This document shows positions 2,860-50,235 of a DNA stretch of 53,433 nt, piece after piece (position 1 is the stretch's first letter; every line of letters begins with the position of its first letter). The stretch lies in assembly GCA_008632985.1 (NCBI GenBank), contig QPGO01000330.1, positions 1-53,433 of the forward strand, in the 5' to 3' direction. A model generated the notes under the pieces. It was given only the letters and a program-made list of their open reading frames with translations, was not told the origin of the DNA and made no database searches. The position numbers and the translations under genes were made by a program. Source of the stretch: Psammoneis japonica (lineage: Eukaryota).

Positions 2860-4760
2860 TGGGCATCCAATGCACAAATGGGCATCCAATGCACACTTGC
2901 AGAAAGGCACCAAACTGGCTGAATCCCAGTTGGGACTGACAGGACCAGCATGCTGGAAGCAAAGGCGACAACCATGTGGGGCACTGCAGATGATTCCAAG
3001 TTTGTGTTGGGGTGCATCATGGGTGGTGGAGAGGGGCTTTTGCCAGGCTGCTGCTCTCCAGGTGCAGACACCTCTCTGTTGCCTCTGGGGATGGGTCATG
3101 GGATTGAATCTTGAGGCGCATTCTCAAACAAATCAAATGCAGCAAATGTGGAAACAAAATTGCCACGATTTGAGCAGACATGGTCAAAATCTTCAGCATT
3201 GGTGATGCCGGTCCATTGTGCAATGCCGGGCCAGATCAGATCCCAAGAAGTTGTCGGGATGAGCTGTCCTCTTCCAACATCAACTTTGCTGTTCTCAGAC
3301 ATGTCGGAAGGACCACACTCTCCCAAGATTCTGCCACCCTTGATGGCTCCACCAGCCACAAAGCAGTTGCCACCCCAGGCATGTTCCACGCCATTGCCAG
3401 AGTTTTGAGGGAGTGTTCAACCAAATTGCAAGGTTTGCAATGTGGCCACATTGTCTCACAAATCCTTGGATTTCAATGTTGACCACTGCAGCATCAAAAG
3501 CAGCTGCAGCGTGCTTCCTGTTCTTGGTGCTGAGCCTTCCCAATGTCAAAAGAGTGGTGAGCTCATCAACAATTGCTCCAGAATTTTCACCTGAGGGTTC
3601 ATGCATGAACATTTCTGAAGCTCTGCCAAACTTCTTGTCATTCCATGTCGGCAGCCTCCGCAGCCCACCAGAGGGTCAGAAAAGACACCAAAACCAAGCT
3701 GATGCCCAGCTCTCATGTCATGGAAACAAGGAGAGAGGCCACATTGAACTGAGCTGTGCAAACCATTGATGAGGTTGATGCTCTTGGACACGTCAAGCAT
3801 CTGTGCTTTGGGTGCCACAAGTGCTGATGCACTTGACACAGATCCTTCAGGTGCAAACTCCAGCAGAAAGAAGCTGAGAGTGCAGACATGTGCTTGTGCA
3901 CCATTTGTCCAATGCATTTGTTCAAATCCCTGAACACAGCCAATGGAATTTCAACATTCTGCGCTTGCTGTCTCCCATTTGAAAGTCCAAACCACACATT
4001 GAGCCAACGACTCTCATGACAGGCTTGCGGATCAAGCTGAAGGAAGGGCATGCACCAAGCACTGCAGATTGGGCTTCATGATCAAGAAGAATCAAGGTGA
4101 CCATGGCGGCCAACAAATCCCAGTGTTCTCTTTTTCCACATCTGATTCCCTGTGACTGGCAGGAGCCACGCTGAAATGCCGCAGTGCACGCCTTCACACA
4201 TGCCATGGACTTGGGTTTGAGGTGCCAAAGCATTGGATGAAACAAACACACAAAAAGGGTGCAGTGTTTGAATGACAAAAGCAATGCTGCAATGTTGCTT
4301 CTGTCTCACACATGGCATCTCTTGCCATTGCTTCTGATGGCACAAAGCTCACAAAATGGACAGGGGTCCTGAATGAATTTCCATTCCTCTTGCCTTTCCC
4401 ATCATCAGAGGCTGCAACATGTTGATGTCCGCTTTCATTTGCATGTTTTGATGCTTTTCACTTTGTGTTTTTCATTCCAGCTGTTTTTGTGAAACAACGT
4501 TCCAAATTTGATTTCACAGTGCATTTGTTGTTTGTGTTTCATGTGTGTCTTTGTTGTCTTTTGCTCTTGATCAATTTTGTGAACTGATCTGTTTTAAATC
4601 ACAATTGCTTTTGATTGTTGAATTGTTTTTTGACAACATTTGCCCTTTTCTTTTGATGCATTGGCTTTGAAATTGCTTTTCAATGGCACCACCGACGTGT
4701 TCCAGCCGCACGTGAACCAAATCGTGCACAAAAACGACATTTGCGCGATTTTTGCGCGGT
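2860..4760. other. TpA-depleted hypermutated domain 1
   Basis: I find no TA between ~2858 and ~4593, then one TTTAAA. TG/CA are in strong excess and CpG is also scarce in the core. Confidence 0.9.
3100..4050 (-). pseudogene. Degraded DUF1800/DUF1501-type gene copy (internally deleted, frameshifted, Tyr->Cys/His)
   Basis: Translations EHAWGGNCFVAGGAIKGGRILGEC...GRGQLIPTTSWD (DUF1501 C-terminus, normally HAWGGNYF...GEYP) and SFFLLEFAPEG...LINGLHSSVQCGL...IVDELTTLLTLGRLS (DUF1800-like). There is an in-frame TGA where FGRTL is expected. Confidence 0.75.
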
Positions 4761-7700
4761 CCCTAACTTACGATCGAACTTTCACCACCAAAAGTAAAGA
4801 TTTATACAAATATAAATGTTTTGCAACACTAACAAGACTCGTGTGAGTGTTGCAATCTCATTGTTATTGTGCTATCTATGTTTTTCATTGCGTTAAAAGA
4901 TTCGTAACACAACGGATGATTTTCGGCGAAAATATTGCCGTTATTTGGCTGTTACCTAAATATATCTTTCTACGATGCTACTTGGTAGGTTTTCTACCTA
5001 CAAAAAAATCTCAGTATAAATCTACTGACGTACAATCAGTATTGAGTCTACTGAGGAAGTTTATGATACATATCCCATGAGGATTTGAATACCCTCAAAA
5101 AACTATTTAAATGTTCATACTCTAGAAGCCTATAACAGTCAATCCGTCTAAGTATTTTTATTAAAATGCCACATACACTAAAATATACATAAATTATATT
5201 CAAAATCCGATTGTCGTTTTGTGCGTCACCTGGGATGGAACACGTCCACCCCACACATGCACCACAGCACTTGCTGGTGTCCCTTCTGCACACAAGTCAT
5301 CCCACATGTGCACTTGCCTTTGTTTTTTGTTGTTTTCCTCCAGCTTTTTGGTGCACTTCTCTCTTTGCTGGATTTTCAGCACCTGTTTGAGGAAAAAGTG
5401 GAGTGAAGCCAAAACAAGCACCCGGGTGTGGATCGATGCCATCACTGAGCCAAAGCGTGCACGCCAGCATGACATGGCAAACATGAAGGCGGTCATCTTC
5501 ATGTGTGATCTGTCACTCTGGTGTGTGTGTGTGCGTGCTTCACCATTTTGAATGATGACTTGCCAATCTGCTGTTCTAAAAGGCACAGGAAGAAAGACAT
5601 CTCTCTGCCAGAAGTGGGGGGCACTGTGCTGGCTGTGTGCAAAAAGCCACACAGCAATGAAGACAGAAGTCTCTGCCATTGTGGGATGAACTCTCTGGCA
5701 GCAAGTGCCACTGCTTTGATTGTAACTTGGTGCAAAAGGCAAGTGTCAATTGAGAAGTTGTGTGCCATGTGCCCCCTTTTGGCGCTGAGACCAATGCAGT
5801 CAATTGTTTTTTTTGACCCACACATGGACAGCTTTGCACTGGAGGACAATGCGTGTGAGACAGCAGCTGTCAAAGCTGCAGAGGGACACCATTTGTCTCT
5901 TGGTCCCAGTCAAGTGAATCTGAAGCAACCCAAAGCTTTCAAATCCAGGAGAGTTCAGAGACACTGTCTTTGCCACTCAGCCAGATGACCCGCCATTGCC
6001 ACAATTTCTTGAGCCAAAGAGTGCCACTGACTTTGGACTCTTCTGGGTGTTTCAAGGTCTCAGCATCTCATTGGAACAAACTGTCAGGGCCTTCTGAGGT
6101 GAGCAAATTTGTGACATCTTCATCACTGTGTGGCCACCCTCTTTCATGTCTCAGCTGATTTCCTTGGATGGATGCAAGGAGTGGAGAGCATTGTTGACAT
6201 GCTTGGATTTGGTGAGCTCAGAGCACTTTAGATGCTCATCATCTTGCACTCCAAAATTTGTGTTGGCACATGAATTCTTTCCCAACCCAACAGGTGTGCA
6301 GAAGCAACACAATCCGTGGGCACCTTCCTTCTTGTGAAGATCTCCAGCAGTGCACTTCTTGGACTGTGCCTTTGGGTGGAGCAACAAGGATGTGGCACCA
6401 CTCCAAAACTCAATGTTTGGGAGGACATGGCCGCGGCTGACCATCACAGCTGCCATCAGTGGCAGATTCTGTTCTGCCCATTGGAGTGTCCAGTGGTTGT
6501 GGTGAGTGTCACAGTTCTTGAGTTGCTGATGCATGGGTGCATGGAATGACCAAGGTTGCAGTGGCTTGCAAGGAGTGCTTGGCTGTGGTGTGATTGTCAG
6601 TCTTGTGCTGCATTGTCTTGGTCATTGACAATTCACTGTTCTTCCCCAGAGCCAACCTGCGACACCTCTTGGCTTCTCTTGTGGACACGGCCATTTGCAA
6701 TCAGCCAAAGCTGTCTTCATTTTGTCAAGCCCAAATGGCTTGCCTTTGTTTTGAACTGACTTCTTGCCAATCATTTGAATCTCATCAGCAGAAGCAGTGG
6801 GGATGTTGCCGGAAGCGCCCCGCTCTGAGCGCATCATGGCTGCGGCATTCAATCACTTTTGGATGATCCTGTCAGCCGCTCATTGGCTGCTCAATGGAGT
6901 CATTGAGTTTTCCACTGCAAAATCAATGTCTTTGGCATGCTTTGATGTGGGAACAGCCAGCAGGACCATGTCAACAAACTCCAATTTTCTGTGCAATCCT
7001 GATTCCTTGTTTGTCGGCATTCAGAAGTTTTCATGAAATTGAGATGACGGCGCAAGATGAGGTCTCTTGTTTTGGGCATGAGTCTCTGATTGCAGCTGCT
7101 GATTTTCTTTGCACATGTCCTCCAATGCAATGAGGGGCTCCAATTTTGCCAGCACAGGTTTTTGACCTGCCGGTGCTGTGCTTGATTCTTGAGATGGAGA
7201 CGGCTTCTGGTTTTTTCTCAACTGCTCTTCCACTTGCTTCTTGCATGCCCTTTCACTGTTCAAGTGGTTGTGGACATGTCCAACATTGGGAATTCTAGCA
7301 GCTTCAGCAGCTGCCACAGTTGCTCCTTTTGTTGCCGCTTGCAAAATTAAGAGGCTGTTTTGCGCCAATGCCAGCTGGTTGTTGGCTTCCTTCAATTCCG
7401 CTTGGTCACTTTCCTCCCGCTTGTCAAAAAGTTTTGAACATTTTTCAATGCATTGTCCTGGTGTTGCATCTGTGAAGCAAATGTGGAAGCATCAAGGCAA
7501 CTGTCAAATGCATTGTCCATTTGTGACCTTCCACTTGCAGTGGCATTTTCGGCATTTTCCGTTGACGATGAAAAGCTTGATGATCCGTTAAAACGACTCA
7601 TGGCATTTTGTCAGTCTTTGGAGGTGTGATGGCATGACTCTCAGTGTTGCAGTTTTCTTTGGTGGTGTGATTGTGCCACTTGTCTGTTGGGAAGAACAAA

Positions 7701-7925
7701 CTGCTGGCATCTTGCATTGTCATTGCACTGTGGGGTTGATGCGGTGGTGCAGCGGCGCTTGGAATTCATGGGAACTTCTCACTCTTTTGCCTGGCTCCGA
7801 CGTCCCACTGGCTGCCCAACAAATTTGTAAATGAAGCTGCACTTGCTGCCGCCCCTTGATTTTCTCACCCTCGGCTCTGCCTCTTTTTCCTGCCCTGCTT
7901 GTTTGCCCCCAAGATTGGCAGCAGC

Positions 7926-8293
7926 GGCGGTTCTGGGCTGGGGAGTTGTCACCCCAGCAAAGCCTGAAGTCACCAAAACCGCCGCCACATTCAGTGGGAC
8001 AAACTCTGAAGCAGCATTGGTGGCATCAGCCATTTGAGCTGGAAGGGAGAAGGACAGATGCGCAGCCACTCACAGCCTTTAACGAACCAAGTGCCAATGG
8101 CGTTCTTTGTTGCCAGCTCATTGCCGCCTGTCGAGGCCACAAGAGCAGCTGTGATTGACCCTCCTCTCCCTCCCTGGGCTGCCTGGTGGCGGTTTTGGGC
8201 TGGGGAGTTGTCACCCCAGCAAAGCCTGAAGCCACCAAAGCTGCCACCACAGCCAGCAGGACGAACTCCCAAGCAGCGTTGGTGGCGTTAGCC
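7926..8293. repeat. Two diverged direct copies of ~107 bp (7926-8032 and 8188-8293)
   Basis: Shared GGCGGTT(C/T)TGGGCTGGGGAGTTGTCACCCCAGCAAAGCCTGAAG...AAGCAGC(A/G)TTGGTGGC...AGCCA. Confidence 0.85.
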
Positions 8294-8739
8294 ACGCTCT
8301 GCAAATGAAAAAACACACATGCCGCGCACAGTCTGGGGCGCTGCACAGCGAGCGAGCGAGCACCGGCGCTCACATCAGGAGCACAGGCGCTTGCACAGCA
8401 TCGCAGTGAGCTGCACGCATGTTGAAGACGGCGCCGTTTCTCGTTTCTCCCCGCACCACAAACCACAAACATCATCAACATGGAGCACCTGCAACGATGG
8501 CCATCGCCGCTGAAAACGAGCATTGTCGATGTTGTGTTGACACCATTGGACCTGCTGTTGTCAACCCAAAAACTGATTCACAATGAAAACAAATGGGAAC
8601 ATTCTCTTGAGCCGAAATGTGTTTCTTCATTCTCACATTCTCAGTGAGTGAATCAAATCACTCCACGGTGTTTTTGTGGTTTTCTCAACTTCTTGTTTTC
8701 CTTTGATCTTTGTCCACATTTCTCTGTGGGAAAATGTCA

Positions 8740-8925
8740 CATCATGCGGGGCATCTCAAGTTGATGCCATGTCATGCGGGCGGCTCAAGCGGATGCTGCA
8801 TCATGTGAGGTGGTTCAAGCGGATGCCACATCATGCAAGGCGGCTCAAGCGGATGCCAATGCCTTGCTGGGCGGCTCAAGTGGATGCCAACACCTTGCTG
8901 GGTGACTCAAGCGGATGCCAACATT
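8740..8925. repeat. Minisatellite, ~6 units of ~29-32 bp with core GGCGGCTCAAGCGGATGCC
   Basis: The core is directly visible six times, with transition variants. Confidence 0.85.
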
Positions 8926-9344
8926 GAACATTGCATGGAGTGGTCCAAGGGTGAGGAGAGTTCTTCATTTTAAAATCTACAATCTGCCACTTTTGGGAAA
9001 GCCCCAATGCAAAGGGCAGACGAGGTTGCTCTCGTCTCCAACAATTGCGAGCAACTGTGCCAAGGTGGCTGACTGCAGTGGCGCCTTGGCAATTTTTTTC
9101 TTTAAGACGGCCCACGAGAGCCAAGGGGTTGCTCCCCGGTGAGACTGAGAGTGGCACCTCCAAGGAAGGGGGTGCCACTCGACGTGCTGCAACCCGAATC
9201 TCAGTTGGACAGGGTTCGCCTGCCCTCAAAGGTGGTGATTGGTTGTTTTCAAGGAATGTGGTGGGACAGAAGGACAAAATGGCTGGATTGGATTGATCCA
9301 CAGTGCAGAATGGTTGTCGAAAAGCTTGGATGGTCGTTCGCAGT

Positions 9345-10013
9345 GGCGCTTCTAGACGCCTCTCCTCCTGTGGACGCTTGTCCATTTTCTTGTGCTTGCG
9401 CACCTTCTTGCAAAGTCGATCTTGCGCAATGCCATCAACCAATCCAACATCTGAAAGGCATTGGGCACGGGAAAAAGCAGTGCAGGTCAAACCATGCTCC
9501 TTCTCGCGGTTGGACAAATCGACGACAAAATGGGACTTGATGGTTTGGCCTTGAGCTTTCCAAACAGTCATCGCCCAGCAAAGCTTCAAGGGCAACACAG
9601 TGCGAGTGTGTTCATCACAGCCCGCATCATCTCACTTTCGAGTGTGCACGGCTGCAGTCACAGGGTGAATTGGCACCCAAACTCGGGGACTGTCATGGTC
9701 GGGGAAAAATGATCCTCCACCGCAGTCTCTGCCGAAGTCAACCCACACAAACTTTGGAAGAGATGGAGCCGAGCCTGATTCGTCATGCACAACGTCCTTT
9801 GCTGTCCCAGTTGCTCCATTGCACAATCCCGCCGACTGGGCAACATTCATGGCAAGCATTGCTCTTGCTCCGACACTGAGGCACATCGAATTCTCCAAGC
9901 CTCGAAAGGAATCAGACGTCTTTTTCTTGCCGTCACCAGTGCTTTTAGCTTGCACTGGAGCAATGGGCTTGCCAAGCCTCTGAAGATTCTTGTTGTTGAA
10001 TTCTTCCACTTCA
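9345..10013 (-). mobile_element. PIF1-family helicase C-terminal remnant (Helitron RepHel-like)
   Basis: LSVGARAMLAMNVAQSAGLCNGATG, WVPIHPVT, LPLKLCWAMTVWKAQGQT and GLTCTAFSRA correspond to PIF1 motifs (GLCNG, PL.L.WA.T.HKSQG.T, YVALSR). Confidence 0.8.
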
Positions 10014-10015
10014 GA

Positions 10016-10257
10016 ATTGAACCCATGATTTGTGAAGGGGATCGGGTGAGCAGAGTTGATGAGATGTGCGTTTGATGAGATTGCTGTCGGCTCTGTCCAA
10101 CTGTTTGCGCTGCCGTGACACAGCCAAAGCATTGACATGGCCAGACAAATGGACGGCCACCACCATTGATGGAAAGCGGTCGGCACAATTTGAGCACACC
10201 CTCTTGGTCACTGCAGATGGCGTGGAGGCTTTGATGGGGAAGATTGAAACATGCCCA
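10016..10257 (+). pseudogene. Methionine aminopeptidase type 1 C-terminal gene fragment with an intron (10046-10123)
   Basis: IEPMICEG / GTGAG...ACAG / [37 protein letters not shown] is the MetAP1 C-terminal signature, including two metal-ligand glutamates. Confidence 0.85.
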
Positions 10258-12000
10258 TGCAGTTCTAGGAAAAAGAATCGATGGCACACAACGGCTTGGA
10301 ACGACACCGGCAGCAAAGGAACGCGAAGCAGAATTGCTGAAAGCTTCTCAAGAAAACCGTGCAACGCAGTGAGCATCAGTGTGCCATGCAAGAAATGCCT
10401 CGCAGCAACGAATGGTTGCTTGGCGTTGACAGGACAACCTCGAGGCCGACGGATGAAGACTTGTGAAAATCCTGTGAACCTTGAGTCATTCTTGAGCTGT
10501 TGTTCAGCTGCTCCCAAAGAGTCCATGATTCAGTTCTTTGAATGAGAGGATGCATCATCCCTGGGCAAGGATGGAGGACAGTCGGTCAACACATCATCTG
10601 CCATGCGGTGCAACCTTTGAGCTGTCGCTGAAGGAATGCCATGTGTCCTCACAGTCAAGCAGCCCCTGCTGGCCTGTTTTTCTTCCTCAACGCAGTCCCT
10701 GCATCAGCGGCCTGTCTCAATTTTCTTCCACCACAGCCAGCAGAGAGAATCCTTCTCGGGCCTTCAAGCAGTGTGTTCGTTGACCGTTGGGGCGCGTCAG
10801 CGCACATGTTCCAGATTTGTCCCGGTCATTTTTTGTAAATGGCATGGACACATCTTCTGCCATGGGTGTTTTGCGTGAGACAAGAATCTCCATTTGACGA
10901 CGAGGTCTCACAATTTCGTTACAATGCGATTTCATTGTGATGTTGGTGATTGACGTGCTTTTAGCACAAGAAGCCATCCCCAGCAACGCGCCGCAACCAA
11001 CCCCCGGTGCGTTCTCAATGCAAATCAAATGACCAAGAAAAAACGAAACTGCAGGAAAAGTGTGGCGCAGCATTGTGCCTTGGTTCCAACAAATCCAGCA
11101 TCACAGGACAACACAAGCAAACCAAAAGAGGACACAGGAGTCTCACTGCACGCTCTCTGCACACTGCATGCTTGAGGATGACTTGTGTCCAGTTTGTGGA
11201 GTGTCATGAGCTTTTGCAGGCTGTTGTCATTTTCTTCTGATTACAAAGTACAACGCGGTCGAGCATTCCACACCGGTGCAAGCACGCAAAGGTTGTTGTC
11301 ATTCCACAATGTTTTGTCATCCACATCCATTGCACAAGAGCACACCACCACATCCGAATGTGTGCATCAAGCTGCCATTGTCAAGACATCATCGCAAGAC
11401 GATGATTCATGGTTTGTTTCCAAACAAGGCGAAGTGGATGGGCTGCTGACTCTGTCCTGTGCCGTGCTCAGTGAAGCCAATTCGATTGCATGGCACCCAT
11501 GGAGTGTGAATGCGGAGGATGGGATGATGTGCACTTTCATGCCTTTTGCCGTCTTTTCTGTGGAGGACAAGACATGGTTGTGGCACTGGAAGGTAAAAAC
11601 TTGAGACTTCACAAATTTCATCATCTTGTTTCCAATTTGTTGCACCGGTGCATGCGTGGGATCTGGCATTGGTTTTTTGTTGGAACTTGTGCTTTTGCAC
11701 AAATTTTGATTTCAGAGCCATGGCGCGAGAGGGCGCGGCACTTGCACTGTTGCCGCAACCATCCTTTTGTTCGGGCAAAACGCACGTTGTTCATTTTGGA
11801 GCATCGGGCAATGTCAGCACAGTGATTTGTCATTGTTTGCCCTCGGGGTTTGAAGCCGTTGACGTCACGTTGCCCAGCCGTGTTGTTTGGAACGAGATTC
11901 TTCTGTTGTTTTGTTGAAACGATTGGTGTTCGGTGCCAGCCCATCATCTTTTCCAACGCATGAAGCGGATGCTCTTCCAGGCCTCAATGACGGTGCGATG

Positions 12001-12380
12001 CGTTCCAGGTCCAGGTGGGACCTCGTGCCACTGAACTGTGACATCGACAGTTTTTTGAATCACGTCGCATGTTGCGCACGTAGATTTCTACGTGATTTTT
12101 TCGATGTTTTTTGTCATTTTACGGTGCACTCATTGAGCGATCCGTCCAACAACTTTTGACATTTTTTGTTGCAGCGCAATTCTACAATGTCTTAAGAATC
12201 GCGCAGGGCAGGCGCATTTGCAAAAAAGTCGAGTGGCAAGAGGCACAATTGCACCACAAACTTGGCCGTTTGTTTGATGTTGAAGATGAACACATCCATC
12301 AATTAAATTCTCGTACTGCGGAGCTCGCACGCAGAATTCCACGGGCCCAATGTCACACGGAGTCCCACCTGGGACTGGAA
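12001..12380 (+). repeat. Dispersed ~380 bp repeat, copy A (copy B at 27553-27931)
   Basis: Colinear match from CGTTCCAGGT to CTGGAA; differences are almost all transitions. Confidence 0.9.
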
Positions 12381-13555
12381 CCCGTCGTGCAGGCATGGGC
12401 GCTGTGGATTCAGACTTTGGAGACGATGGCAAATGCCGCGACTTTGGAGGTTTTGATGATGACAGTGGCGACGTGGGCAATGCGGGTGCTCATGCCACAG
12501 ATCTTTCATGACAGGCCTGTGTTTCTTTGTTGGAAGAATCACAGACGGCACGGAGACAATGTTTGCCACCCTGCGCCTTCTGATGCAAAACGAGAGGAGG
12601 AATCGCAATGGAAACGTTGGCAAGACATGCATCAACATTTCACACTGCAGACGCCATCACAATCCCTTGGGCACGGAATTGAGTGCAACCCCAATGACCA
12701 TGTCAAGTGGGACATGCGTTCTAGACAAAAAGCACAGCGACCAATGATGTCAACAGTCTCGACGCCACCGGCACACACGTGCACATTCTCGCCTGCTCGG
12801 AAGCACAATCATCTCGAATCCGTTGGTCATTTGGCGATTGAATCTGCAGCCGCCTCTTCCTGCTCCTGCCGACCCTCAGCCAATGAGGCCTTGCCCTGTC
12901 TTGAGATCCTGCACAGATGTTCGATTTTGAGCGCCCCCTTCACAACAAGAGAAAAGATCTTTTTCGCTTTTCGCTTGGCTCCCAGCTTCTCCTCATTCAA
13001 CATTGCGCGGTCTTTGTCTTGAATCTCGATGAAGCGAGCTCTTGGACCGTTGTCCACGAGACAACCTCTTGCAGCTAAAAGGCAAGGGCATGAGTTGATT
13101 CCGCACCTGCACCCGTTTGTTTGACAATGATGATGCAATGGCCTTCTGTTTTTCCAGCAAATTTAGCTTGCTGGCTCGTTCGTGTGACATCCCAACTCAT
13201 CATCCTGAAATCCTTTGCTTTTGAGAAAAGCTTCCATGTCAGGCACTGAAACCCAGCCATCCTTGTCGGCAACTGTGTCTCTTCGAAATAAATCCTTGTC
13301 AATGCCCAGCTCCTTTCTCATTTCCTCTTCTGGGACCAAGTCACTGGCTGTTGTTGAGCAAGCATCAGGGATGCATGTGGACTTCTTCCCAACGGGAATG
13401 AGGACGCCATCGTCGCGGAGCACTCCTTTCGGCAAAAGCTTGGCTCCACTCTTGGCGTTGTCTCGCTTGAGCTTGCGTCTCATTTTTTGACATGGTCAAC
13501 TCGTTTTCATCGGCTTGCCATCTGTGGCGTCGATTGTTCCACCACCGCGAGTGGC

Positions 13556-14735
13556 TGCCCCATCGTTCGTCGAAACCTGAAAGACAGAAATGCACAAATT
13601 CAACGAGAGAAAATCATCCTTGAAATGAAACCAAGATCCGGGAAATGCACTTGCGCTCTTTTTCGTTCCGTCAATCGCATCCTTTTCCAGGTTTGCAGCG
13701 GCCTCTACATCCCCCCCAGCAAACTCCAATTCGTTGTTGGTGTGGACTGCCGGGTGCCGTTTCGTTTTCGAGTCATCGCTCGCATCCGTTGCCTCCATCA
13801 CGGCGGCATTTGCAATCTCCGTTTCGGTTGTTGGGACGCCTTCAGGGGGGCATTTCTTTCTCGTGTTGCCGCTCGCATCGTCCCCAGTGATTGCAGGGGT
13901 TGCATCAGAGTGAGATCCATTTCTGCGTGTGGCGTGCTTGTCATCTCTGTCATCCGTGGCATCCCCTGTTGCAGCACGAGGTGTCACCAAGGAAGCTCGG
14001 TCTTGTTTGCCAGAACCATGCTTGGCAGAAGGCGCTTCCAAGGAAACTCGACCCCGTTCGAAATGCACGAATTCAACGAGAGAAAATCATCCTTGAAATG
14101 AAACCAAGATCTGGGAAATGGACTTGCACTCTTTTTCGTTCCGTCAATCGCATCCTTTTCCAGGTTTGCAGCGGCCTCTACATCCCCCCCAGCAAACTCC
14201 AATTCGTTGTTGGTGTGGACTGCCGGGTGCCGTTTCGTTTTCGAGTCATCGCTTGCATCCGTTGCCTCCATCACGGCGGCATTTGCAATCTCCGTTTCGG
14301 TCGTTGGGACACCTTCAGGGGGGCATTTCTTTCTCGTGTTGCCGCTCGCATCGTCCCCAGTGATTGCAGGGGTTGCATCAGAGTGAGATCCATTTCTGCG
14401 TGTGGTGTGCTTGTCACAACTCCTCTGTGCCAGCTTTGTCGATTGCAGTGTTGTCGTTGTTCCTGGTTCGAAGGTTGGCGTGAGCAACCGCCCCATCGTT
14501 CATCAAAACCTGAAAGGCAGAAACAACCGAATTCAATGAGAGAACATCATCCTTGAAAAGAAATCAAGATCCGAAATGGACTTGCATTCTTTTTCGTTCC
14601 ATCAATCGCACCCTTTTCTGCGTTTGCAGCGGCCTCTGCACCCCCCCCAGCAAACTCCAATTCGTTGTTGGTGTGGACTGCCAAGTGCCGTTTTGTTTTT
14701 GAGTCGTCGTTTGCATTTGTGGCCTCCATCACGCC
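13556..14735. repeat. Three tandem-arranged copies (13556-13943, 14060-14416, and a more diverged 14488-14735)
   Basis: Copies 1 and 2 are offset by 473 bp and nearly identical. The repeated peptide ATDASDDSKTKRHPAVHTNNELEFAGG appears on the minus strand. Confidence 0.9.
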
Positions 14736-15270: not shown

Positions 15271-15663
15271 NNNNNNNNNNNNNNNNNNNNNNNNNNNNNN
15301 NNNNNNNNNNNNNNNNNNNNNNNNNNNNNNNNNNNNNNNNNNNNNNNNNNNNNNNNNNNNNNNNNNNNNNNNNNNNNNNNNNNNNNNNNNNNNNNNNNNN
15401 NNNNNNNNNNNNNNNNNNNNNNNNNNNNNNNNNNNNNNNNNNNNNNNNNNNNNNNNNNNNNNNNNNNNNNNNNNNNNNNNNNNNNNNNNNNNNNNNNNNN
15501 NNNNNNNNNNNNNNNNNNNNNNNNNNNNNNNNNNNNNNNNNNNNNNNNNNNNNNNNNNNNNNNNNNNNNNNNNNNNNNNNNNNNNNNNNNNNNNNNNNNN
15601 NNNNNNNNNNNNNNNNNNNNNNNNNNNNNNNNNNNNNNNNNNNNNNNNNNNNNNNNNNNNNNN
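15271..15663. other. Assembly gap (N run)
   Basis: Run of N characters. Confidence 1.
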
Positions 15664-36619: not shown

Positions 36620-39440
36620 AGATCTCGTCCTGCTTCGCTCGCTGCGCGCCAAAAAAAAAACTGAAAACGTCGTCCATCCGTCGATCACCGCGATCGCATT
36701 GATGTTCGCATTGATGTTTGTCCTTCAACAGTCGGGAAGGACAATGACCAAGCAACAAGGAAAGAAGAAAAAGGAGCATCATCTCATCGAGGAGTCCAGT
36801 CTCCAGTCAGTTGCGTGTTGCTTTGTGCTTGAGATTGATTTGCCTCTTGAATTTGGATGATTCCCCACGCGGCACACCACCCCCATTTTTTAAAAATTCG
36901 ACCACATGTGAGCTGGTCCCAAGCGACACATGTCGTGATGACAAAGAGCAGTCTGTCACCTGACAGGCAAGAAGAGCCCCCCCAGTCATGGACATGGATG
37001 TCACATGCTTTCTGTGTGCACAGAGTTTTCAATGCAATCCAGTGCCAAACAATCGATCATGCTGCCCCCTCAACACTTGCTCTCTCACAACGGACACACC
37101 CCCCAGCAACCCTCTTCTTGGCGGCTGCTTGGACAGCTCTCCACATTGCAAACTTGCAGCATGCTGAACATCATGGAAGCATCTCTTCCATCCCATGCTG
37201 CAGTCACCCCCACCATGCCAGCACCACCCACCAACAAGTGCCGCTGGAGCAACAAAACACCACTGCCATCACAAACACACCTGGCGAGGCTGCAGAAAGT
37301 GATGCTGACCTGCTTTTGGCTGATCCAACTAAACCGTGCTGTTCTGCTGGCATCAGGAGTGCAGCAATTTTGCTCATTGCCACCACCTTGGGAATGACCC
37401 AGCAAACCAATGCAGTGGGACACCCTGGGCTGGCTTTCACAAAGACCCCATGAACCTGCCTGCAAACATCATGATTTTCTGTGGCGTGGGCACTGGCAAA
37501 GCAGCAGATGTGGTCCAGAAGGCCATCTTGGGGGGTCTTTGGCAGCAAGATCATCAAAAAACGTCTGCACACTGGCTCCTTGTTTGGGGTCTTTCTGGTG
37601 CAGCCCATGTGCAGAGAAAACATGTGCAGCCTGTCCAGTGTTTGCCAAAGCTCCAAGTGCAAATCCTGCACAGCAAGTTTCTTTGGCAATCTTGCCATGT
37701 TCCCCAATCTGCCTGGGTGGCCCTGCAACACACAGCTGGGTGTGCCATCTCCCAAAACCATGGGTGATCATCAAGCTTGGGCCACACAGCAGACTGCTCC
37801 TGTTGCAACCAGCAGCCTGCCCTCAATCAGGGCGCATTGTGCTGTGCCTTTTTCCTTCAGAAGCCACACAGCTGGGGCATCAAGCCCTCAAAAAAGCATC
37901 TCATCTCTCAGGTGGTCTGTGCTGACCCTTGTTGTGGGGGTGTCCATTTCATCAAGATCAACACCCCAGATGGGCCACACCACATTTGGGTGCAATTGCC
38001 AGACAAACCACAAAACTTGCAGTGTCCTTGTTTTCCCAGAGCACTGGCGCATTTGGCAAACACCCCCCCCCCCCCCCCCCCCGGTGATCAAATCACCTCC
38101 ATGACATTTTTGTGCTGTTGCAGAAGCTGTTGCCAGCACAACAAACTGCCACATTCTCAAATGATGCCACGAGCATTGGCACCCACTTGAGACTCAGGCC
38201 TCCACAAGACCTGCTTGTGAGCCACTGCACAAGTCCTGATCAATGCCACTGACATGCACCACAGTCAGCATGCCTGACCTGTGAAACCTGCAAACCACCT
38301 GTCCCTGCAAGAACATGAAATCCTCAGTTGCATGATGGCTGGGCAACAATCTTTCAAGTCCAAAAAAGAGGCCTCTCAAGTGACTCTGAGAGAGCATCTT
38401 GGAAAGTGAACCATGGGCTGCACAGCACACCACACTGACAAAAGGAAACAATGTTGCAAAAAAACAGATGCTTGCTGCTCCCACTGTCTGTGGCTCAGAA
38501 GTGGCAACAACTTGCCTGCACACATTGTTTGCAAAAGCTTGCTTGTTGTTCACTTCTGAAAGCAAGCTTTGCGTGCCACTGGCAGCACTGGGGGGTGTTT
38601 CTCAGGGCAATGACACTGAAGGCTGGGCTGTGTTTGTGGGGCTTCTCTTTGCATCCAACAGAAAAGCCACCAGTGCTGCTGTGTCATGTCCTTGTTGGGT
38701 TTTTGGCACATGCTCTCTTTTGCTCCTCCTTCCCACACACCAAAGAGGTCTCTTCATTTCTTTTCTTTTCACTTGTGCAGTCACAACAGCCACAATGATT
38801 TTTTTCACCAACTTGTTGGGTCAATTGCTTGAGAAATTTAGCAATGGTCATGACACCGAAAAATCTCTCGGTTTCGCGCTCGATTTTCGATCACAACTCC
38901 TCGTCGTCTCACACAATGTGTTGTTGTTTGCCAAGCCGGAAGCCGCAATCTCCAAGGATGGCTCGCCCTTCCTCTGGATTGAGAGCTTGCTCTTGTTTGG
39001 CATTCCACAACTCATTTTGCTTGATGGTGTGTTGTCTCTCTTTTTCGACTCGTCCTCTCGTGCGATGTGCTTGTTGTTCGCCAAGCCGGAATGCCACGAC
39101 ACCCAAGGATGGCTCGCCCTTCCTCTGGCTCCAATTGCCTGCTCTTGTTTGGTGTTCCACAAATCATTTTGCTTGATGGCATGTTGTCTCAAATGGCAGC
39201 GCAGGTGTTGCCAGTTAAGTCCGGAGGTCGGGGCAAATCGAACGCGTGTCTTTGGCCTGGAGTCCATGTCACTCCCGTGTCTTTGACCGCAGGAAGTTGC
39301 CTGTTCGCTTGACCCGTCAGGTCACGGCTGTTGAAACAGACAGCAGCGTTCGTCTGCGAAGCAGCAAAAGCTCGCCAAGCAGATCATGCCGTTGACGGAA
39401 CGCGGGGTTTGGGGTTCCGTCGCATCAGTGACGTGGCACG
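36620..39440. other. TpA-depleted hypermutated domain 4 (unidentified repeat/TE remnant)
   Basis: I count no TA from ~37332 to ~38838 and only a handful in the whole domain. Confidence 0.9.
38921..39190. repeat. Two diverged ~120 bp direct copies, 150 bp apart
   Basis: TTGTTGTT(T/C)GCCAAGCCGGAA...CCAAGGATGGCTCGCCCTTCCTCTGG...TCATTTTGCTTGATGG at 38921 and 39071. Confidence 0.85.
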
Positions 39441-47374: not shown

Positions 47375-47499
47375 GTCGCTGCTGTTTTCGCTGCACGTCG
47401 TTCACTTCCTTAAGAACGCTCGCCGCTCGCCGCTCGCCATCGCATGTACAGCATGAATAATGACGACGACTCGGCCTCCGCTTTATTCGGGTAATGAGC

Positions 47500-50235
47500 C
47501 ATTCTTTTCCGTGGCCGTTGCCAACTCCCAACACATGCATGCTTCCTCGACATGTGGGCATTGTTCCACTGTCTCTTTGCACTCTGTCTCTCTCCACTGC
47601 CAGCTTTGTGGCAGCAAGAAGCAACAAAGTTGCAGGGGCTGGTGTCTCCTCCTCTGCCCAGCCAGAGGCAACTTTTCTGCGCAAGCCAGGCTGCCAGGAG
47701 AGTGACCCCTTTGTGCCTCCTCTTTGAGCTGCCAGCTGCTTGCAAGATCATGGGCACTTTGTTTTGAAAAAGGGCCATGGTGGTGTGCCCATGCAAGATG
47801 TGGTGAACTCTTCTTGCCTTTTCCTTGTCCTCTGCCACAGTGCAAATGAGACAAAACAGTGCTGCCAAAAACACTCCAAAAAAGCAGGGAGAGGCAAAGG
47901 GGGTGCTCTTCGCCACTGCTCAGCTGCTGTGGAGGAGAGCTGAAATGTTTCTGGAATGTTTTCTTGAGCACCACACAAGCCAAAGCACAGCAAGAAGATC
48001 ACAAGAAATGTGAGCTTCTTCTTTTGTTGCTCCAACACATGGCAAATGTTCTGAAGTTCTCCCCACAGCTTTTTGAGGCCTCTCACACAGTTTTTTCTTT
48101 AGACACCCAAGCAAAACTTTGCTGCCTGTGGTGTTGCATTAGTTCCACCCTTCATGCACTGAACCTTGACACAGATCAAGACATGTTTTTGTCTTCTTGC
48201 ATTGATGGGCTCATCTCAAACACACAACTCCACTTGATGTCAGCAAGCTCCTTGAAGGAATTTGCAAAAGGACAGCGTGCCTGTTGTCGTGAGCAATGAG
48301 AGCAAAGAAGACCCCATCACTGTGATGTGTGTCAGAGGCATGCACTTTGAAACATGCCACTCAATGCTCACATGCACTGAAGTTTTGCAATCTTCCACCC
48401 ACTTCTTCAGCAATGAGAACACAAACAACACGACTCCTGGGGGGATCTTTGAACAGGACCAGCGGGGCAAGAATTGGTTTGTTGACCATGTTCTTGAGTT
48501 TTTCAAGTTTGTTTTTGAGCACTCAATCACAGGCAAAATTGGCAACATGCTGCCTCTGAAAGCTTTGCCATCAACTGCTGTCTGCTGTTTGACCAAAATT
48601 GCTCTGTTCATCATGGGAAAGTCACAACTTGCTCATCACAAGGGCCTTGGCTTCTTTGACTAAAAAGAGCAAGACTCTGACAACCTGTTTTTGTTCAGGC
48701 TCCTCTCTCTTTGCCACAAACTGGTTGATGTGCTCTTGGTGCTGCAGATGTCTCACAGCACAATCTTGAACAGCTCAATGAACATTTGAGAAAAGTTTGG
48801 GGGTGCAATGCTTGCATTGAATTTGTGGGTTCAACTGTCAGGAGAGTCAGTCTGTTGAGGAGAAGACATCATGGAGGCCTTTGGCACAATGACCCCAAAA
48901 GGATGGTCTGCATCTGTGCCAACAACTGTCCTGTCACCAAGTGTGTTTGTTGTTGAGGAAGGAGGACAGGGGATCCCAAAACAGACATTGTCTGTCTGCC
49001 AGCTCATCATCTGGAAAAGCTCATCAAAACAAATTAGATGGGCAGCAGTCCAAAGCCATTCAATGTCATGACAACATCAAAAAACAGCAATGCTTGACTG
49101 CAGAGATGATGCTCGCCTTGTGTCGTTGTCTCCCACTCCCACAAGTGCACAGCTCTTGTCAGTCTCCTCATGCCAGAAAGAGGGGGCAGCGGTGCTTCTT
49201 GAGCTGTGCTGCCAGTTTGGCGCTGCAACTTGGAGTCTCAAAAAATTTCTCCAACCCTGTTGTGCAACATCCCTCCCATGCTCAGTGCCCTGAACAGACA
49301 ATTGTCTGGGCAGCCCTCCTCTTCCTTCCCCTCCTTTGCGCTGTGCTGGACTGACTGCAGGGCTGCCAGCTTTTTCAGTGCAGCTGAGCAAATTGAGCCC
49401 ATGTCTCATCCTTCAGGCTGCAGATTTTCTTGGTCTAAAGAGCAAAAAAAATCCTCTGACAAAAGGAGCCGCAAAATCTCAAGCTCAGTGGCAAGAAAAG
49501 AGGGTTCTTGTCTGCACTCAGCTGCAGTTTGAGGAGTTGCTCTCAAGAAAAAGTGCCCTCCTTGGATGATGCAGATTTTGGTGGCAGCGCAAACACCCAA
49601 ATGCTTGAATGCATGCCCAACTTCCCATGAGCATGTTGCTTGCACCTGATGTCCTGTGGTGCCATGAGAGGAGGCACGTGCAAGAGAGCCCACACATCAT
49701 CCCCTCTCCATGAATGTCGTGGCACTTGTCAAAAAGCAGACAGCACTGCTCTCACGGCTCACTCACATGCTGCTCAACAATCAAGAACTGCAAGTGCAGA
49801 GATTTTTGTTCATTGCCATCCAACTTGGATCACTTTTCTTTGCCTCTCTGGCCTTGTCTGCAGCTGTCTGTCGTCAACTTGACATGAGCTGGCACTGAGC
49901 CTCAAATTGAGCACATTCAAAGAACAGACACTCTGTTGCCAAGAAGCACCCCCACTCTTTTGCAGCACAAGAAGCAAGCAACAACATTTGGGACAGGATT
50001 TTTGCACACAGGTCTCTCTTGCTCTTTGCAGTGGCTGGAGTTGAGTTGGCCAGCTCCAGAAACGAGAGGTTGCCTGCTCTGCCTTTCTGCCCCTGTGGTC
50101 GTGGTCCCCCCACGCTCCTCGCTGCACAACACTCTCTTCTTCATTGGATGCCTTGCCTTGTCAAAGACACACACAGGAGTCACCCCAGCTGTGAGATGAG
50201 CTTGTTGGGTGTGGGCTGAAGAGCTGCCAACAAAC
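47500..50235. other. TpA-depleted hypermutated domain 5, located between two divergent host genes
   Basis: About five TA in 2.7 kb (TTTAG, ATTAG, CTAAA, TTAGA, TCTAA); CpG is also very rare. Confidence 0.9.
49880..50230 (-). pseudogene. XPG/FEN1/EXO1-family nuclease remnant
   Basis: LTAGVTPVCVFDKARHPMKK resembles the XPG-N motif GI.P.FVFDG...P.K. FECAQFEAQCQL resembles the XPG-I motif AP.EAEAQ. Confidence 0.55.

What the first reader, a model, noticed from the sequence alone, without database searches (positions are those of the whole stretch)
2860..50235. Candidate RIP-like genome-defence system that erases TpA (TA->TG/CA) across repeat domains
Seen: five domains (~32 kb) have almost no TA, with TA-free runs of ~1.7 kb (2858-4593) and ~1.5 kb (37332-38838), while neighbouring host genes and spacers contain TA every few tens of bases. 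AA, TT and AT remain common, so this is not a GC-content effect. The affected DNA is of unrelated origins (helicase, hAT-like, LTR element, host-gene copies), so it is not inherited element composition. Known: fungal RIP and 5mC deamination change C->T (RIP creates TpA); neither removes it. Inference: a regional, strand-symmetric A->G/T->C mutator targeted to repeats or heterochromatin. Candidate mechanisms are a DNA adenine deaminase (TadA-derived editors prefer TA), Pol-eta-type error-prone repair (A->G at WA motifs) or a modified T/A base. No gene for the machinery is identifiable in this window.
Basis: partly seen in the sequence, partly recalled or inferred. Interest (0 to 1): 0.97.

Follow-up and report, generated by a model that had tools for sequence, protein, structure and literature searches.

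The report
TA-erasing hypermutation of diatom junk DNA
In this diatom-like genome piece, about 32 kb of gene-free, partly transposon-derived DNA has had nearly every T-A step rewritten to T-G or C-A while neighbouring genes are untouched, a targeted DNA mutation process so far reported only once, in an unrelated alga.

Summary
Five gene-free domains (32,264 bp) hold 98 TA where 1,212-2,024 are expected. The longest TA-free runs are 1,739 and 1,509 bp.

The direction is TA->TG/CA:
- TA and CG losses (59/kb) match the TG and CA gains (57.5/kb).
- In a helicase relic, 3 of 3 conserved tyrosines (122 homologues) are Cys or His, with codons TGC and CAT.
- The two LTRs of one retroelement differ at 7 TG-versus-CA sites, against about 1 expected from CpG decay. 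The changes therefore arose in place, in DNA, after insertion.

TG and CA gains are equal and interleaved, so both strands are hit. Survivors avoid ATA/TAT (5 of 98, against 333 of 697 in host DNA).

Contigs built from raw reads carry the same sequence at single-copy depth, possibly from the window's own sample.

The host is diatom-like.

I file this as a new, near-saturated member of that kind.

This scan had already noted the same process on other pieces of this genome.

The enzyme, the targeting rule and the defence role remain inferred. The hAT-like and host-gene-copy claims were not confirmed.

The parts
2857..4763 (.). TA-erased domain A; origin unrecognised; also strongly CpG-depleted
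   Evidence: 1 TA in 1,907 bp (o/e 0.01), CG o/e 0.29, TG 1.78, CA 1.84. No Pfam hit on ORFs of 90 aa or more.
4764..5197 (.). TA-rich, AT-rich island with sharp edges between domains A and B; not mutated
   Evidence: 50 TA in 434 bp (115/kb, o/e 0.98), GC 0.32. Sequence read. A 14-nt inverted repeat flanks it at 4694-4707 and 5233-5246.
5198..20893 (.). TA-erased domain B (contains the N gap 15271-15663); holds the helicase relic, a tandem array and a diatom-specific element ORF
   Evidence: 53 TA in 15,303 bp (o/e 0.06), CG o/e 0.67. In sub-windows 13001-16500, CG o/e is 0.8-1.1 while TA o/e is 0.02-0.10.
9383..10564 (-). Relic of a Pif1-family (Helitron-type) helicase, C-terminal half, broken by 3 TGA and 1 TAG
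   Evidence: Pfam Pif1_2B, E 4.7e-5, 23.5 bits, just under the 23.9-bit cut-off. 2,304 homologues at E<=0.001, best 3.4e-59. 2 TA in 1,182 bp (o/e 0.03). Conserved Tyr columns are Cys, Cys, His.
13587..14733 (.). Tandem array, period about 473 bp, TA-erased
   Evidence: Self-BLAST: 13587-14275 against 14060-14733, 86% over 695 bp. Dinucleotide pair table.
18256..19995 (+). 580-aa reading frame (one internal TGA) of a diatom-specific element protein with no Pfam family
   Evidence: 4 homologues, E 2.7e-71 to 5.9e-44; one source name is Cyclotella meneghiniana and one is an MMETSP transcript. 5 TA in 1,740 bp. Tyr 0.2% against 1.9-3.4% in the homologues.
20894..21449 (.). Island of normal composition between domains B and C
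   Evidence: 26 TA in 556 bp (o/e 0.62), CG o/e 0.92. Sequence read.
21450..31153 (.). TA-erased domain C; holds the LTR element and a copy of a repeat also present in B
   Evidence: 36 TA in 9,704 bp (o/e 0.06), CG o/e 0.57. 27548-27931 is 87.5% identical to 11996-12380.
22214..24849 (+). Short LTR retroelement: 369-bp LTRs (22214-22582 and 24481-24849) with TG..CA ends, polypurine tract before the 3' LTR, 5-bp target duplication CTCGA/CTTGA, and an internal gag/protease-like ORF
   Evidence: LTRs 91% identical over 370 bp. Flanks read. ORF 22993-24573 carries the motif LLDSGA and a weak RVP hit, E 0.0098. 14 TA in 2,637 bp.
36613..39215 (.). TA-erased domain D, starting 57 bp beyond the 5' end of the MAGE/Nse3 ORF; origin unrecognised
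   Evidence: 3 TA in 2,603 bp (o/e 0.02), CG o/e 0.32. A raw-read contig bridges 34918-37241 with 0 substitutions.
47493..50239 (.). TA-erased domain E, ending about 150 bp before the PALP-enzyme ORF; origin unrecognised
   Evidence: 5 TA in 2,747 bp (o/e 0.03), CG o/e 0.15. No meaningful Pfam hit in six read-through frames. One 10,568-nt raw-read contig spans 42880-50900.
35422..36555 (-). Untouched host gene (MAGE/Nse3 homologue) that bounds domain D
   Evidence: Pfam MAGE, E 1.1e-22. Its named homologues are all from diatoms. Host stretch 31700-36612 has TA o/e 0.56.
50386..51896 (+). Untouched host gene (PLP-dependent enzyme, in several exons) that bounds domain E
   Evidence: Pfam PALP on three successive ORFs. 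Host stretch 50240-53433 has TA o/e 0.59.

Best explanation
A DNA-level mutational process has acted in place on gene-free, at least partly transposon-derived chromosomal domains of this diatom-like genome. It converts A:T to G:C specifically at TpA dinucleotides. TA becomes TG when the adenine of the upper strand changes, and CA when the adenine of the lower strand changes. It has run almost to saturation and stops within tens to hundreds of bases of the neighbouring genes.

It is separate from ordinary CpG decay, which is superimposed on it and is strong in only some of the domains.

Shown here:
- the direction of change;
- the TpA restriction;
- an extended motif (ATA/TAT and GTAC erased almost completely, CTAA/TTAG and TTAA the least);
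- both strands hit equally, without strand-coherent blocks;
- action after integration.

Inferred:
- The chemistry is enzymatic deamination of adenine to hypoxanthine in DNA. The likeliest agent is a tRNA-adenosine-deaminase-like (ADAT2/TadA-type) enzyme, whose natural target A34 always follows U33. I put this at about 50%. The main alternative is oxidation of thymine to a form that mispairs with G.
- The enzyme is steered by silent chromatin or small RNAs to foreign or repeated DNA.
- The effect is irreversible inactivation of mobile elements: Tyr codons become Cys or His codons, and other TA-containing codons change.
For: 1. Budget. Against host DNA in the same window, the domains lose 37.9 TA/kb and 21.2 CG/kb and gain 29.7 TG/kb and 27.8 CA/kb. 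That is 59.1 lost against 57.5 gained.

2. Outgroup polarity. In the helicase relic aligned with 122 homologues, 3 of 3 columns with Tyr in at least 50% of homologues are Cys, Cys and His (codons TGC, TGC, CAT). A fourth column (Tyr 48%) is Cys. By contrast, 64 of the 83 other conserved columns are unchanged. Two conserved Val are Ala with codon GCA (GTA->GCA).

3. Action in place. The two LTRs of the element at 22214-24849 were identical at insertion (established LTR biology). They now differ at 33 positions: 7 dinucleotide sites are TG in one and CA in the other, 3 are TA against TG/CA, and 8 are CG against TG/CA. With 8 CG/CG sites, CpG decay predicts about 1 TG/CA discordance. The excess implies about 16 ancestral TA (43/kb; host 41/kb), of which about 84% were lost per LTR, against 33% of CpG and about 1.1% of other sites. 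Over all six in-window repeat pairs, 20 discordant TG/CA sites are seen against about 6.5 expected from CpG decay.

4. Not family composition. Among the 150 best helicase relatives the median Tyr is 2.7%, and only 1 has none. In the 10 closest of 80 metagenome loci, TA o/e within the match is 0.30-0.73, against 0.03 here. None of the 80 combines low TA with high TG/CA.

5. Independence from CpG decay. At 13001-16500, CG o/e is 0.8-1.1 and TA o/e is 0.02-0.10.

6. Motif. 5 of 98 surviving TA lie in ATA/TAT, against 333 of 697 in host DNA (Fisher p 1.4e-18).

7. Symmetry. TG 3,296 against CA 3,308. The runs test gives z between -1.5 and +1.5 in 5 of 6 tested segments (domain B split at the N gap) and -3.2 in D; the four host stretches give +0.5, -3.1, -2.7 and +0.3.

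8. Raw-read contigs of run X1 carry the TA-free sequence across the domain edges, at the depth of the flanking genes (57.9-60.5).

9. Precedent. Mutation-accumulation lines of Bigelowiella natans gave 230 of 231 mutations in two integrated viral regions as A->G or T->C, all at TpA (Results read in full).
Against: 1. In the second element protein (18256-19995), aligned with only 4 homologues at 33-37% identity, 1 of 8 Tyr-consensus columns keeps Tyr and none of the other 7 is Cys or His (Phe x3, Leu x2, Met, Arg). The homologues are distant (138 of 295 other consensus columns kept), but this does not show the predicted pattern.

2. Domains A, D and E have no recognisable transposon content and no look-alikes in the scan's index, so 'repeat-targeted' is not shown for them.

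3. Runs X1-X3 come from one sample and may be the data the window was assembled from, so they are not independent of the assembly. Their library type is not on record.

4. The polarity counts are small: 4 Tyr columns and one LTR pair.

5. Surviving TA may partly be new TA made by C->T changes, which blurs the motif.

6. No enzyme, chromatin mark or de novo event was observed. No whole genome is held.
Confidence: 0.82

Rival explanations
1. Technical artefact. A modified base in silent chromatin, or a polishing or base-calling bias, is read as G or C, so TA is really present in the DNA.
For: The library type of the only runs found is not on record, and they may be the assembly's own data. The X1 contig differs from the window by 26 gaps in 8 kb, so the assembly contains indel-type differences.
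Against: Contigs built from raw reads by k-mers, without the assembly, cross the domain edges as single unbranched contigs at the depth of the neighbouring genes. A misread modified base on both strands would give an all-TG and an all-CA version of each domain. Instead TG and CA are interleaved at random. This last step is inference. The two LTRs and the other repeat pairs show different TG/CA choices at homologous sites, as fixed independent mutations do.
Confidence: 0.04
2. Inherited or selected composition. The elements arrived TA-poor (for example from a TA-avoiding donor), or their lineages purged TA under selection. No local mutator is needed.
For: In the element protein at 18256-19995, Tyr-consensus columns are Phe, Leu, Met or Arg rather than Cys or His. 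This could reflect an ancestor already poor in Tyr.
Against: The LTR-LTR differences arose after insertion and are mostly at TA-derived sites. Conserved helicase tyrosines are Cys or His, and a working protein cannot be free of TA because both Tyr codons contain it. Relatives elsewhere have normal Tyr and TA. Unrelated sequences (helicase relic, LTR element, tandem array, unrecognisable DNA) share the same depletion, with edges at gene borders.
Confidence: 0.04
3. A generic process in silent DNA, not a dedicated TpA editor: GC-biased gene conversion, or error-prone repair by a Pol-eta-type polymerase (A->G at WA motifs).
For: Both produce A:T->G:C changes and can be regional (established knowledge, not tested here).
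Against: Only TA is lost. AA and TT rise (o/e 1.28 and 1.26, against 1.09 and 1.11 in host DNA) and AT is barely changed (0.87 against 0.93). GC content is unchanged. Biased gene conversion is not dinucleotide-specific. The WA motif includes AA.
Confidence: 0.04
4. Same regional TpA process, but the chemistry targets thymine. A JBP/TET-like dioxygenase oxidises T in TpA to 5-hydroxymethyl- or 5-formyluracil, which mispairs with G and gives T->C.
For: TA is its own reverse complement, so T-directed and A-directed chemistry give the same TG/CA outcome. The flank preference found here (ATA/TAT best) fits either a -1 A before a target T or a +1 T after a target A.
Against: Nothing in the window separates the two chemistries. 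The only published discussion of the signature favours an ADAT2-like adenine deaminase, on homology alone.
Confidence: 0.2
5. RNA-level A-to-I editing (ADAR-like or fungal TAD-like) of element transcripts, fixed through reverse transcription.
For: Known RNA editors prefer U before the edited A (stated in the preprint's Discussion).
Against: LTR-LTR differences cannot come from editing before integration. A helicase relic of DNA-transposon (Helitron) type, a tandem array and unrecognisable DNA are equally affected. Both strands are hit equally.
Confidence: 0.02

Closest known systems
TpA-restricted hypermutation of integrated NCLDV and virophage DNA in Bigelowiella natans (Mettrop et al., bioRxiv 10.64898/2026.01.13.699255; abstract, Results and Discussion read)
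   Same: Only A->G and T->C changes, only at TpA, giving TpG and CpA. The process is confined to regions of foreign DNA while the rest of the genome is normal. The long-term footprint is TpA depletion with CpA+TpG enrichment. TpA-poor coding sequences there are enriched for reverse-transcriptase and DDE domains.
   Different: A different supergroup branch: a diatom-like stramenopile here, a rhizarian there. The preprint does not mention diatoms. The state here is near-saturated (o/e 0.01-0.06, against 0.45 for their NCLDV region). The targets are old transposon relics and unrecognisable gene-free DNA, not young viral integrations. CpG decay is superimposed here. The extended motif (ATA/TAT, GTAC) is not reported in the parts I read. 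Their evidence is de novo mutations in mutation-accumulation lines; mine is only the fossil record.
Repeat-induced point mutation (RIP) of Neurospora and other Pezizomycotina (features recalled; mentioned in passages of PMC9998398, and in the preprint's Discussion)
   Same: Regional, dinucleotide-specific transition hypermutation that riddles mobile DNA with missense and nonsense changes and leaves neighbouring genes intact. There is some graded leakage at edges.
   Different: The direction is opposite. RIP turns CpA/TpG into TpA and lowers GC. Here TpA turns into CpA/TpG and GC is unchanged. Repeat dependence, premeiotic timing and a RID/DNMT4-type enzyme were not shown here.
CpG decay by 5-methylcytosine deamination in methylated diatom transposons (methylation of diatom TEs: passages of PMC9998398)
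   Same: It also yields TG/CA and is present in the same domains (CG o/e 0.15-0.67).
   Different: It cannot remove TA. TA loss is complete even where CpG is intact (13001-16500).
Adenine base editors derived from TadA, and tRNA adenosine deaminases ADAT2/3 (recalled; ADAT2 DNA activity as cited in the preprint)
   Same: A->I chemistry read as A->G. The natural target adenine follows a uridine, matching the TpA context.
   Different: No such gene could be looked for, because no genome is held. Natural action on chromosomal double-stranded DNA in silent chromatin is not established.

Membership tests
TpA-restricted hypermutation of foreign DNA (Bigelowiella natans type) | Substitutions are A->G / T->C (A:T->G:C transitions) | tested here: met
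   Conserved helicase Tyr are now Cys/His, and Val(GTA) is now Ala(GCA). TA and CG losses equal TG and CA gains. LTR pair. One contrary but weak data set.
TpA-restricted hypermutation of foreign DNA (Bigelowiella natans type) | Restricted to TpA dinucleotides | tested here: met
   TA o/e is 0.05, while AA is 1.28, TT 1.26 and AT 0.87 in the same 32,264 bp.
TpA-restricted hypermutation of foreign DNA (Bigelowiella natans type) | Confined to regions of foreign (viral or mobile) DNA, with the rest of the genome normal | tested here: inconclusive
   Confinement is clear. A foreign origin is shown for parts of B and C: helicase relic, LTR element, element protein. It is not shown for A, D and E.
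TpA-restricted hypermutation of foreign DNA (Bigelowiella natans type) | De novo, episodic hypermutation measurable between generations | not testable with these tools
   This needs mutation-accumulation lines or dated strain re-sequencing. Only contigs from one sample were available.
TpA-restricted hypermutation of foreign DNA (Bigelowiella natans type) | Same molecular machinery (unknown; an ADAT2-like candidate is proposed) | not testable with these tools
   No genome is held for this window. No deaminase family was found in the window's ORFs.
Fungal RIP | C->T transitions, mainly CpA->TpA, creating TpA and lowering GC | tested here: not met
   The direction is opposite: TA is lost, CA/TG are gained and GC is unchanged.
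Fungal RIP | Triggered by sequence duplication | tested here: inconclusive
   Some in-window duplicates exist. Domains D and E lie in contigs at single-copy depth and have no look-alikes in the scan's index. Past copy number is unknown.
CpG decay (5mC deamination) | CG->TG/CA with CpG depletion | tested here: met
   CG o/e is 0.15-0.67 in the domains. CG-against-TG/CA differences occur between repeat copies. This is a second, separate component and does not explain the TA loss.
ADAR-type RNA hyperediting fixed by retrotransposition | Acts on RNA before integration; limited to retroelements | tested here: not met
   Post-insertion LTR-LTR differences and non-retroelement DNA are affected.
Pol-eta-type WA-motif mutagenesis | A->G at both TA and AA | tested here: not met
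   AA is not depleted: o/e 1.28 against 1.09 in host DNA.

The most novel reading that the evidence does not exclude
Diatoms and chlorarachniophytes, and perhaps the SAR clade at large, share a chromatin- or RNA-guided enzyme that edits adenine in chromosomal DNA at (A/G)TA(T/C)-type sites. It would be an 'adenine RIP' that permanently kills transposons and integrated viruses. In this diatom it has run to saturation over whole gene-free domains, and the flank preference measured here is the enzyme's footprint.
Probability: 0.35. Interest if true: 0.92.

Novelty: new member of a known kind. Interest (0 to 1): 0.78.

Why it matters
Dedicated hypermutation of selfish DNA in the germ line is so far known for cytosine (fungal RIP; APOBEC on retroelements). 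A natural, regionally targeted A:T->G:C editor of chromosomal DNA would be a second chemistry for genome defence. It would also be a possible natural counterpart of engineered adenine base editors.

The one published case is a preprint on a rhizarian alga. Finding the same signature, far more advanced, in a diatom-like genome suggests the process is widespread among ecologically dominant algae.

This matters in four practical ways:
- It would bias transposon annotation, because Tyr-less, stop-riddled relics escape profile searches, as they did here.
- It would distort molecular dating from LTR divergence.
- It would shape the base composition of algal genomes.
- It gives a concrete motif and clear test loci for finding the enzyme.

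Tried and rejected
- **Whole genome.** Not held. No genome-wide map and no search for deaminase genes was possible.
- **Pfam on ORFs.** On 150 of the 174 ORFs of 90 aa or more in and around the TA-poor domains (24 were not sent because of the 150-protein limit), Pfam gave only Pif1_2B and sub-threshold chance-level hits.
- **Pfam on read-through frames.** Six-frame read-through of 47401-50300 and 17401-20900 gave nothing meaningful. Domains A and D and most of B and C were not scanned in read-through form.
- **Gag/protease ORF P0121.** No homologue at E<=0.001 among proteins of 289-923 aa.
- **Atlas search on 38390-39283.** Nothing above 0.80.
- **In-window parents of 'host-gene copies'.** tblastn of 113 host ORFs of 70 aa or more against the window found no copy outside themselves.
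- **Strand-coherent patches.** None were found beyond host level. The local CA excess at 22950-24450 lies in a Gln-rich ORF and was not taken as a mutational bias.
- **Expression.** No RNA holder was listed. Run X2, which behaves like RNA, has no cover over 36976-38303 and 47600-50255. I draw no conclusion from this.
- **Earlier-findings look-ups.** Look-ups for 'deaminase', for this place, and for four stretches by sequence returned nothing.
- **Rfam and tRNA scans.** None found.
- **Literature.** Full-text searches gave no description of TpA-erasing mutation in diatoms and only the Bigelowiella preprint for the signature. Hits opened and found irrelevant: PMC7884421 and PMC9258296. The preprint's supplements are closed; they may hold flank-context data that I could not compare.

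Full report
**1. Observation**

The window has 955 TA (obs/exp 0.28) and a strong TG/CA excess. I placed the edges from the list of TA positions. Five domains stand out:

| Domain | Coordinates | TA count | TA o/e |
|---|---|---|---|
| A | 2857-4763 | 1 | 0.01 |
| B | 5198-20893 | 53 | 0.06 |
| C | 21450-31153 | 36 | 0.06 |
| D | 36613-39215 | 3 | 0.02 |
| E | 47493-50239 | 5 | 0.03 |

Domain B contains a 393-N gap at 15271-15663.

Together the domains cover 32,264 bp with 98 TA. Base composition predicts 2,024, and the TA ratio of the host genes in the same window predicts 1,212. Host DNA has 698 TA in 17,036 bp, o/e 0.60.

The longest TA-free runs are 1,739 bp (2856->4595), 1,509 bp (37330->38839) and 1,391 bp (29763->31154). 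At host density the first has probability about 1e-31.

AA, TT and AT are not depleted (1.28, 1.26, 0.87), and GC is the same inside and outside the domains.

**2. What lies around and inside**

The flanking genes are an ankyrin/kinase ORF, a MAGE/Nse3 homologue, a NuA4/Eaf6-like ORF, a PLP-dependent enzyme and a NUDIX ORF. They have ordinary TA content.

The MAGE protein's homologues that carry a source name are all from diatoms: Cylindrotheca, Fistulifera, Ditylum and Seminavis, at 42-49% identity. The host is therefore diatom-like, not a fungus as the Atlas' nearest cluster first suggested.

Inside the domains almost nothing is recognisable to Pfam. What I could identify:
- A Pif1-family, Helitron-type helicase relic at 9383-10564(-). 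It has 2,304 homologues, best E 3.4e-59.
- A short LTR retroelement at 22214-24849. It has TG..CA ends, a polypurine tract, a 5-bp target duplication CTCGA/CTTGA (one CpG transition apart) and a gag/protease-like ORF with the motif LLDSGA.
- A 580-aa element protein at 18256-19995 with four Pfam-less homologues. One source name is Cyclotella meneghiniana and one is an MMETSP transcript.
- A tandem array of about 473 bp at 13587-14733.
- A 385-bp repeat shared by B and C.

Domains A, D and E remain of unknown origin. 'hAT-like' and 'host-gene copies' were not confirmed. None of 113 host ORFs has a copy in the TA-poor DNA.

**3. Direction of change**

*Budget.* Per kb, the domains have 37.9 fewer TA and 21.2 fewer CG than host DNA, and 29.7 more TG and 27.8 more CA. 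That is 59.1 lost against 57.5 gained.

*Outgroup.* I aligned the helicase relic with 122 of the 150 best homologues, keeping those with a BLAST match of at least 150 residues. All 3 columns with Tyr in at least half of the homologues are Cys, Cys and His in the window (codons TGC, TGC, CAT). A fourth column (Tyr 48%) is Cys. By contrast, 64 of the 83 other conserved columns are unchanged. Two conserved Val are Ala with codon GCA.

*Amino-acid composition.* In ORFs of the domains, Tyr is 0.2% (5 of 3,120) against 2.4% in host ORFs, and Cys is 4.4% against 1.7%. Some of these ORFs may not be real genes.

*LTR pair.* The LTRs were identical at insertion. They now show 33 mismatches:
- 7 dinucleotide sites are TG in one LTR and CA in the other;
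- 3 sites are TA against TG/CA;
- 8 sites are CG against TG/CA;
- 8 mismatches are of other kinds.

With 8 CG/CG sites, CpG decay predicts about 1 discordant TG/CA site. The excess must come from ancestral TA that each LTR resolved independently. This implies about 16 ancestral TA in 370 bp (43/kb; host 41/kb). About 84% were lost per LTR since insertion, against 33% of CpG and about 1.1% of other positions. TA sites therefore mutate roughly two orders of magnitude faster than background in this domain. The estimate is rough and rests on small counts.

Over all six repeat pairs, 20 discordant TG/CA sites are seen against about 6.5 expected from CpG decay.

*Consequence.* LTR-LTR differences arise only after integration. 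The process therefore acts on chromosomal DNA in place, not on RNA or on the source copy.

**4. A result that does not fit**

In the element protein at 18256-19995, 8 columns have Tyr as the consensus of its 4 homologues. One keeps Tyr. The other 7 are Phe (3), Leu (2), Met and Arg, and none is Cys or His.

The homologues are only 33-37% identical, and just 138 of 295 other consensus columns are kept, so the ancestor of this copy may not have had Tyr there. Still, the predicted pattern is absent. The same alignment does show CpG-type changes, for example conserved Arg read as Cys or as TGA.

**5. Not family composition, not GC content, not CpG decay**

- The 150 best helicase relatives have a median Tyr content of 2.7%. 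Only one (P0157) has none.
- In the 10 closest of 80 metagenome loci, TA o/e within the helicase match is 0.30-0.73, against 0.03 in the window. None of the 80 combines low TA with high TG/CA.
- TA erasure is complete where CpG is intact: at 13001-16500, CG o/e is 0.8-1.1. The two processes are therefore separate.

**6. Fine structure of the process**

TG (3,296) and CA (3,308) are equal. They are interleaved without strand-coherent blocks. The runs test gives z between -1.5 and +1.5 in 5 of 6 tested segments (domain B split at the N gap) and -3.2 in D. The four host stretches give +0.5, -3.1, -2.7 and +0.3.

The survivors show a flank effect. Only 5 of 98 are in ATA/TAT, against 333 of 697 in host DNA (Fisher p 1.4e-18). 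Survival relative to host density is as follows:

| Context | Survival |
|---|---|
| ATAC, ATAG, ATAT classes | 0 |
| GTAC | 0.014 |
| ATAA/TTAT | 0.03 |
| CTAC/GTAG | 0.07 |
| GTAA/TTAC | 0.13 |
| CTAG | 0.16 |
| TTAA | 0.29 |
| CTAA/TTAG | 0.39 |

A simple additive model fits roughly. It ranks the base two before the target A (or the complement of the base after it) as A > G > C > T. Some survivors may be newly created TA.

Edges are sharp at 36612/36613, which is 57 bp beyond the MAGE ORF, and at 50239/50240, about 150 bp before the PALP ORF. They are graded over 0.3-0.6 kb elsewhere. Two islands of normal or high TA (4764-5197 and 20894-21449) sit inside the erased DNA with sharp edges.

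**7. Artefact check**

Run X1 (Logan contigs built from raw reads) gives two informative contigs:
- A 2,325-nt contig lies on 34918-37241 with no substitution, crossing the D edge.
- A 10,568-nt contig lies on 42880-50900 with 16 substitutions and 26 gaps, covering all of E.

Both are at depth 57.9-60.5, like the flanking genes.

A misread modified base would be expected to give two strand-specific versions (all TG or all CA), or branching. Neither is seen. This step is inference.

The caveat is that X1-X3 are one sample, possibly the assembly's own, and the library type is not on record.

At 39290-39456, in a high-depth repeat at the edge of D, 4 of the 4 listed variant places have CA in the window where other copies have TA. 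That table is truncated, so this is anecdotal.

**8. Mechanism**

*Shown:* a regional, TpA-specific, strand-symmetric A:T->G:C process that acts on integrated DNA.

*Inferred:* enzymatic adenine deamination. Hypoxanthine pairs with C. The UA context matches U33-A34 of the tRNA substrates of ADAT2/TadA; this point is recalled knowledge, and the preprint proposes an ADAT2-like candidate. Oxidation of thymine to a G-pairing form would give the same footprint and cannot be excluded.

*Ruled out or disfavoured:* Pol-eta-type WA mutagenesis and biased gene conversion do not fit, because AA and AT are untouched. RNA editing does not fit (section 3).

*Targeting and machinery:* targeting by silent chromatin or small RNA is inference from the domain shape. 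No machinery gene lies in the window.

**9. Known systems**

The closest is the TpA-only hypermutation of an integrated giant virus and a virophage in Bigelowiella natans. There, 230 of 231 mutations in those regions of mutation-accumulation lines were A->G or T->C, all at TpA. TpA o/e was 0.45 for the viral region, and the process was episodic between lines. That preprint does not mention diatoms.

My full-text searches found no description of the signature in diatoms. Passages of PMC9998398 record that diatom transposons are CpG-methylated and that many diatoms carry DNMT4 enzymes related to fungal RID, of unknown function. That concerns cytosine chemistry and is only context.

Fungal RIP is the functional analogue but runs in the opposite direction.

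**10. Earlier notes of this scan**

One search shows that the same process was already noted on at least eight other pieces of this genome. Two of those notes named the preprint and several called the host a diatom. I checked both points myself. I used the Tyr->Cys/His idea as a test on a different element.

**11. Verdict**

This is a real and striking feature. The direction and in-place action are supported. The enzyme, the targeting rule and the defence role are open. I class it as a new, near-saturated member of a kind described once, in 2026, in an unrelated alga.

Noticed in passing
window 4764-5197: A 434-bp AT-rich (GC 0.32), very TA-rich (115 TA/kb) island with razor-sharp edges between two TA-free domains. 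It is flanked by a 14-nt inverted repeat (4694-4707 / 5233-5246). It could be a later insertion or a protected segment. Its origin is unknown, and it has no look-alike in the scan's index.
   Followed up: partly
window 20894-21449: A 556-bp island of normal TA and CpG content between domains B and C. By eye (no tool run) it contains short hairpin-forming inverted repeats around 21040-21110. It has no Rfam or tRNA hit.
   Followed up: partly
window 38968-39631: A segment with summed contig depth in the thousands in run X1, so a high-copy family, sits at the edge of domain D. At the 4 listed variant places (39290, 39423, 39437, 39456) the window has CA where other copies have TA.
   Followed up: partly
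window 31613-31705, 40740-40861, 44325-44417: Contigs of run X2 (labelled 'DNA?') skip 91-120 nt with CT..AC ends, which is GT..AG on the minus strand. X2 therefore behaves like a transcriptome, and these places look like introns of minus-strand host genes.
   Followed up: no
window 18256-19995: An element protein family with only Pfam-less homologues (one source name is Cyclotella meneghiniana, one an MMETSP transcript). The motif GDPFHIANLVV is invariant or nearly so across them. Its Tyr-consensus columns are Phe, Leu, Met or Arg here, not Cys or His; this is unexplained.
   Followed up: partly
protein P0157 and locus L001:19-726: One public helicase homologue has no Tyr in 207 aa, with Cys 4.3%. 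One metagenome locus has TA o/e 0.33, CG 0.24 and TG/CA 1.54 within the helicase match. These may be partly TA-erased copies in other organisms.
   Followed up: no
window 42880-50900: The raw-read contig of X1 differs from the window by 26 gaps and 16 substitutions over 8 kb. This points to indel-type assembly errors or allelic differences.
   Followed up: no
window 52614-52976 (-): A NUDIX-domain ORF (E 6.2e-8) lies among the host genes. NUDIX enzymes clean damaged nucleotides; no link to the mutator is implied.
   Followed up: no
window 22950-24450: A local excess of CA over TG (skew -0.23 to -0.39) on the sense strand of the LTR element's Gln-rich ORF. It could reflect coding composition or a strand bias of the mutator in this young element.
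   Followed up: partly
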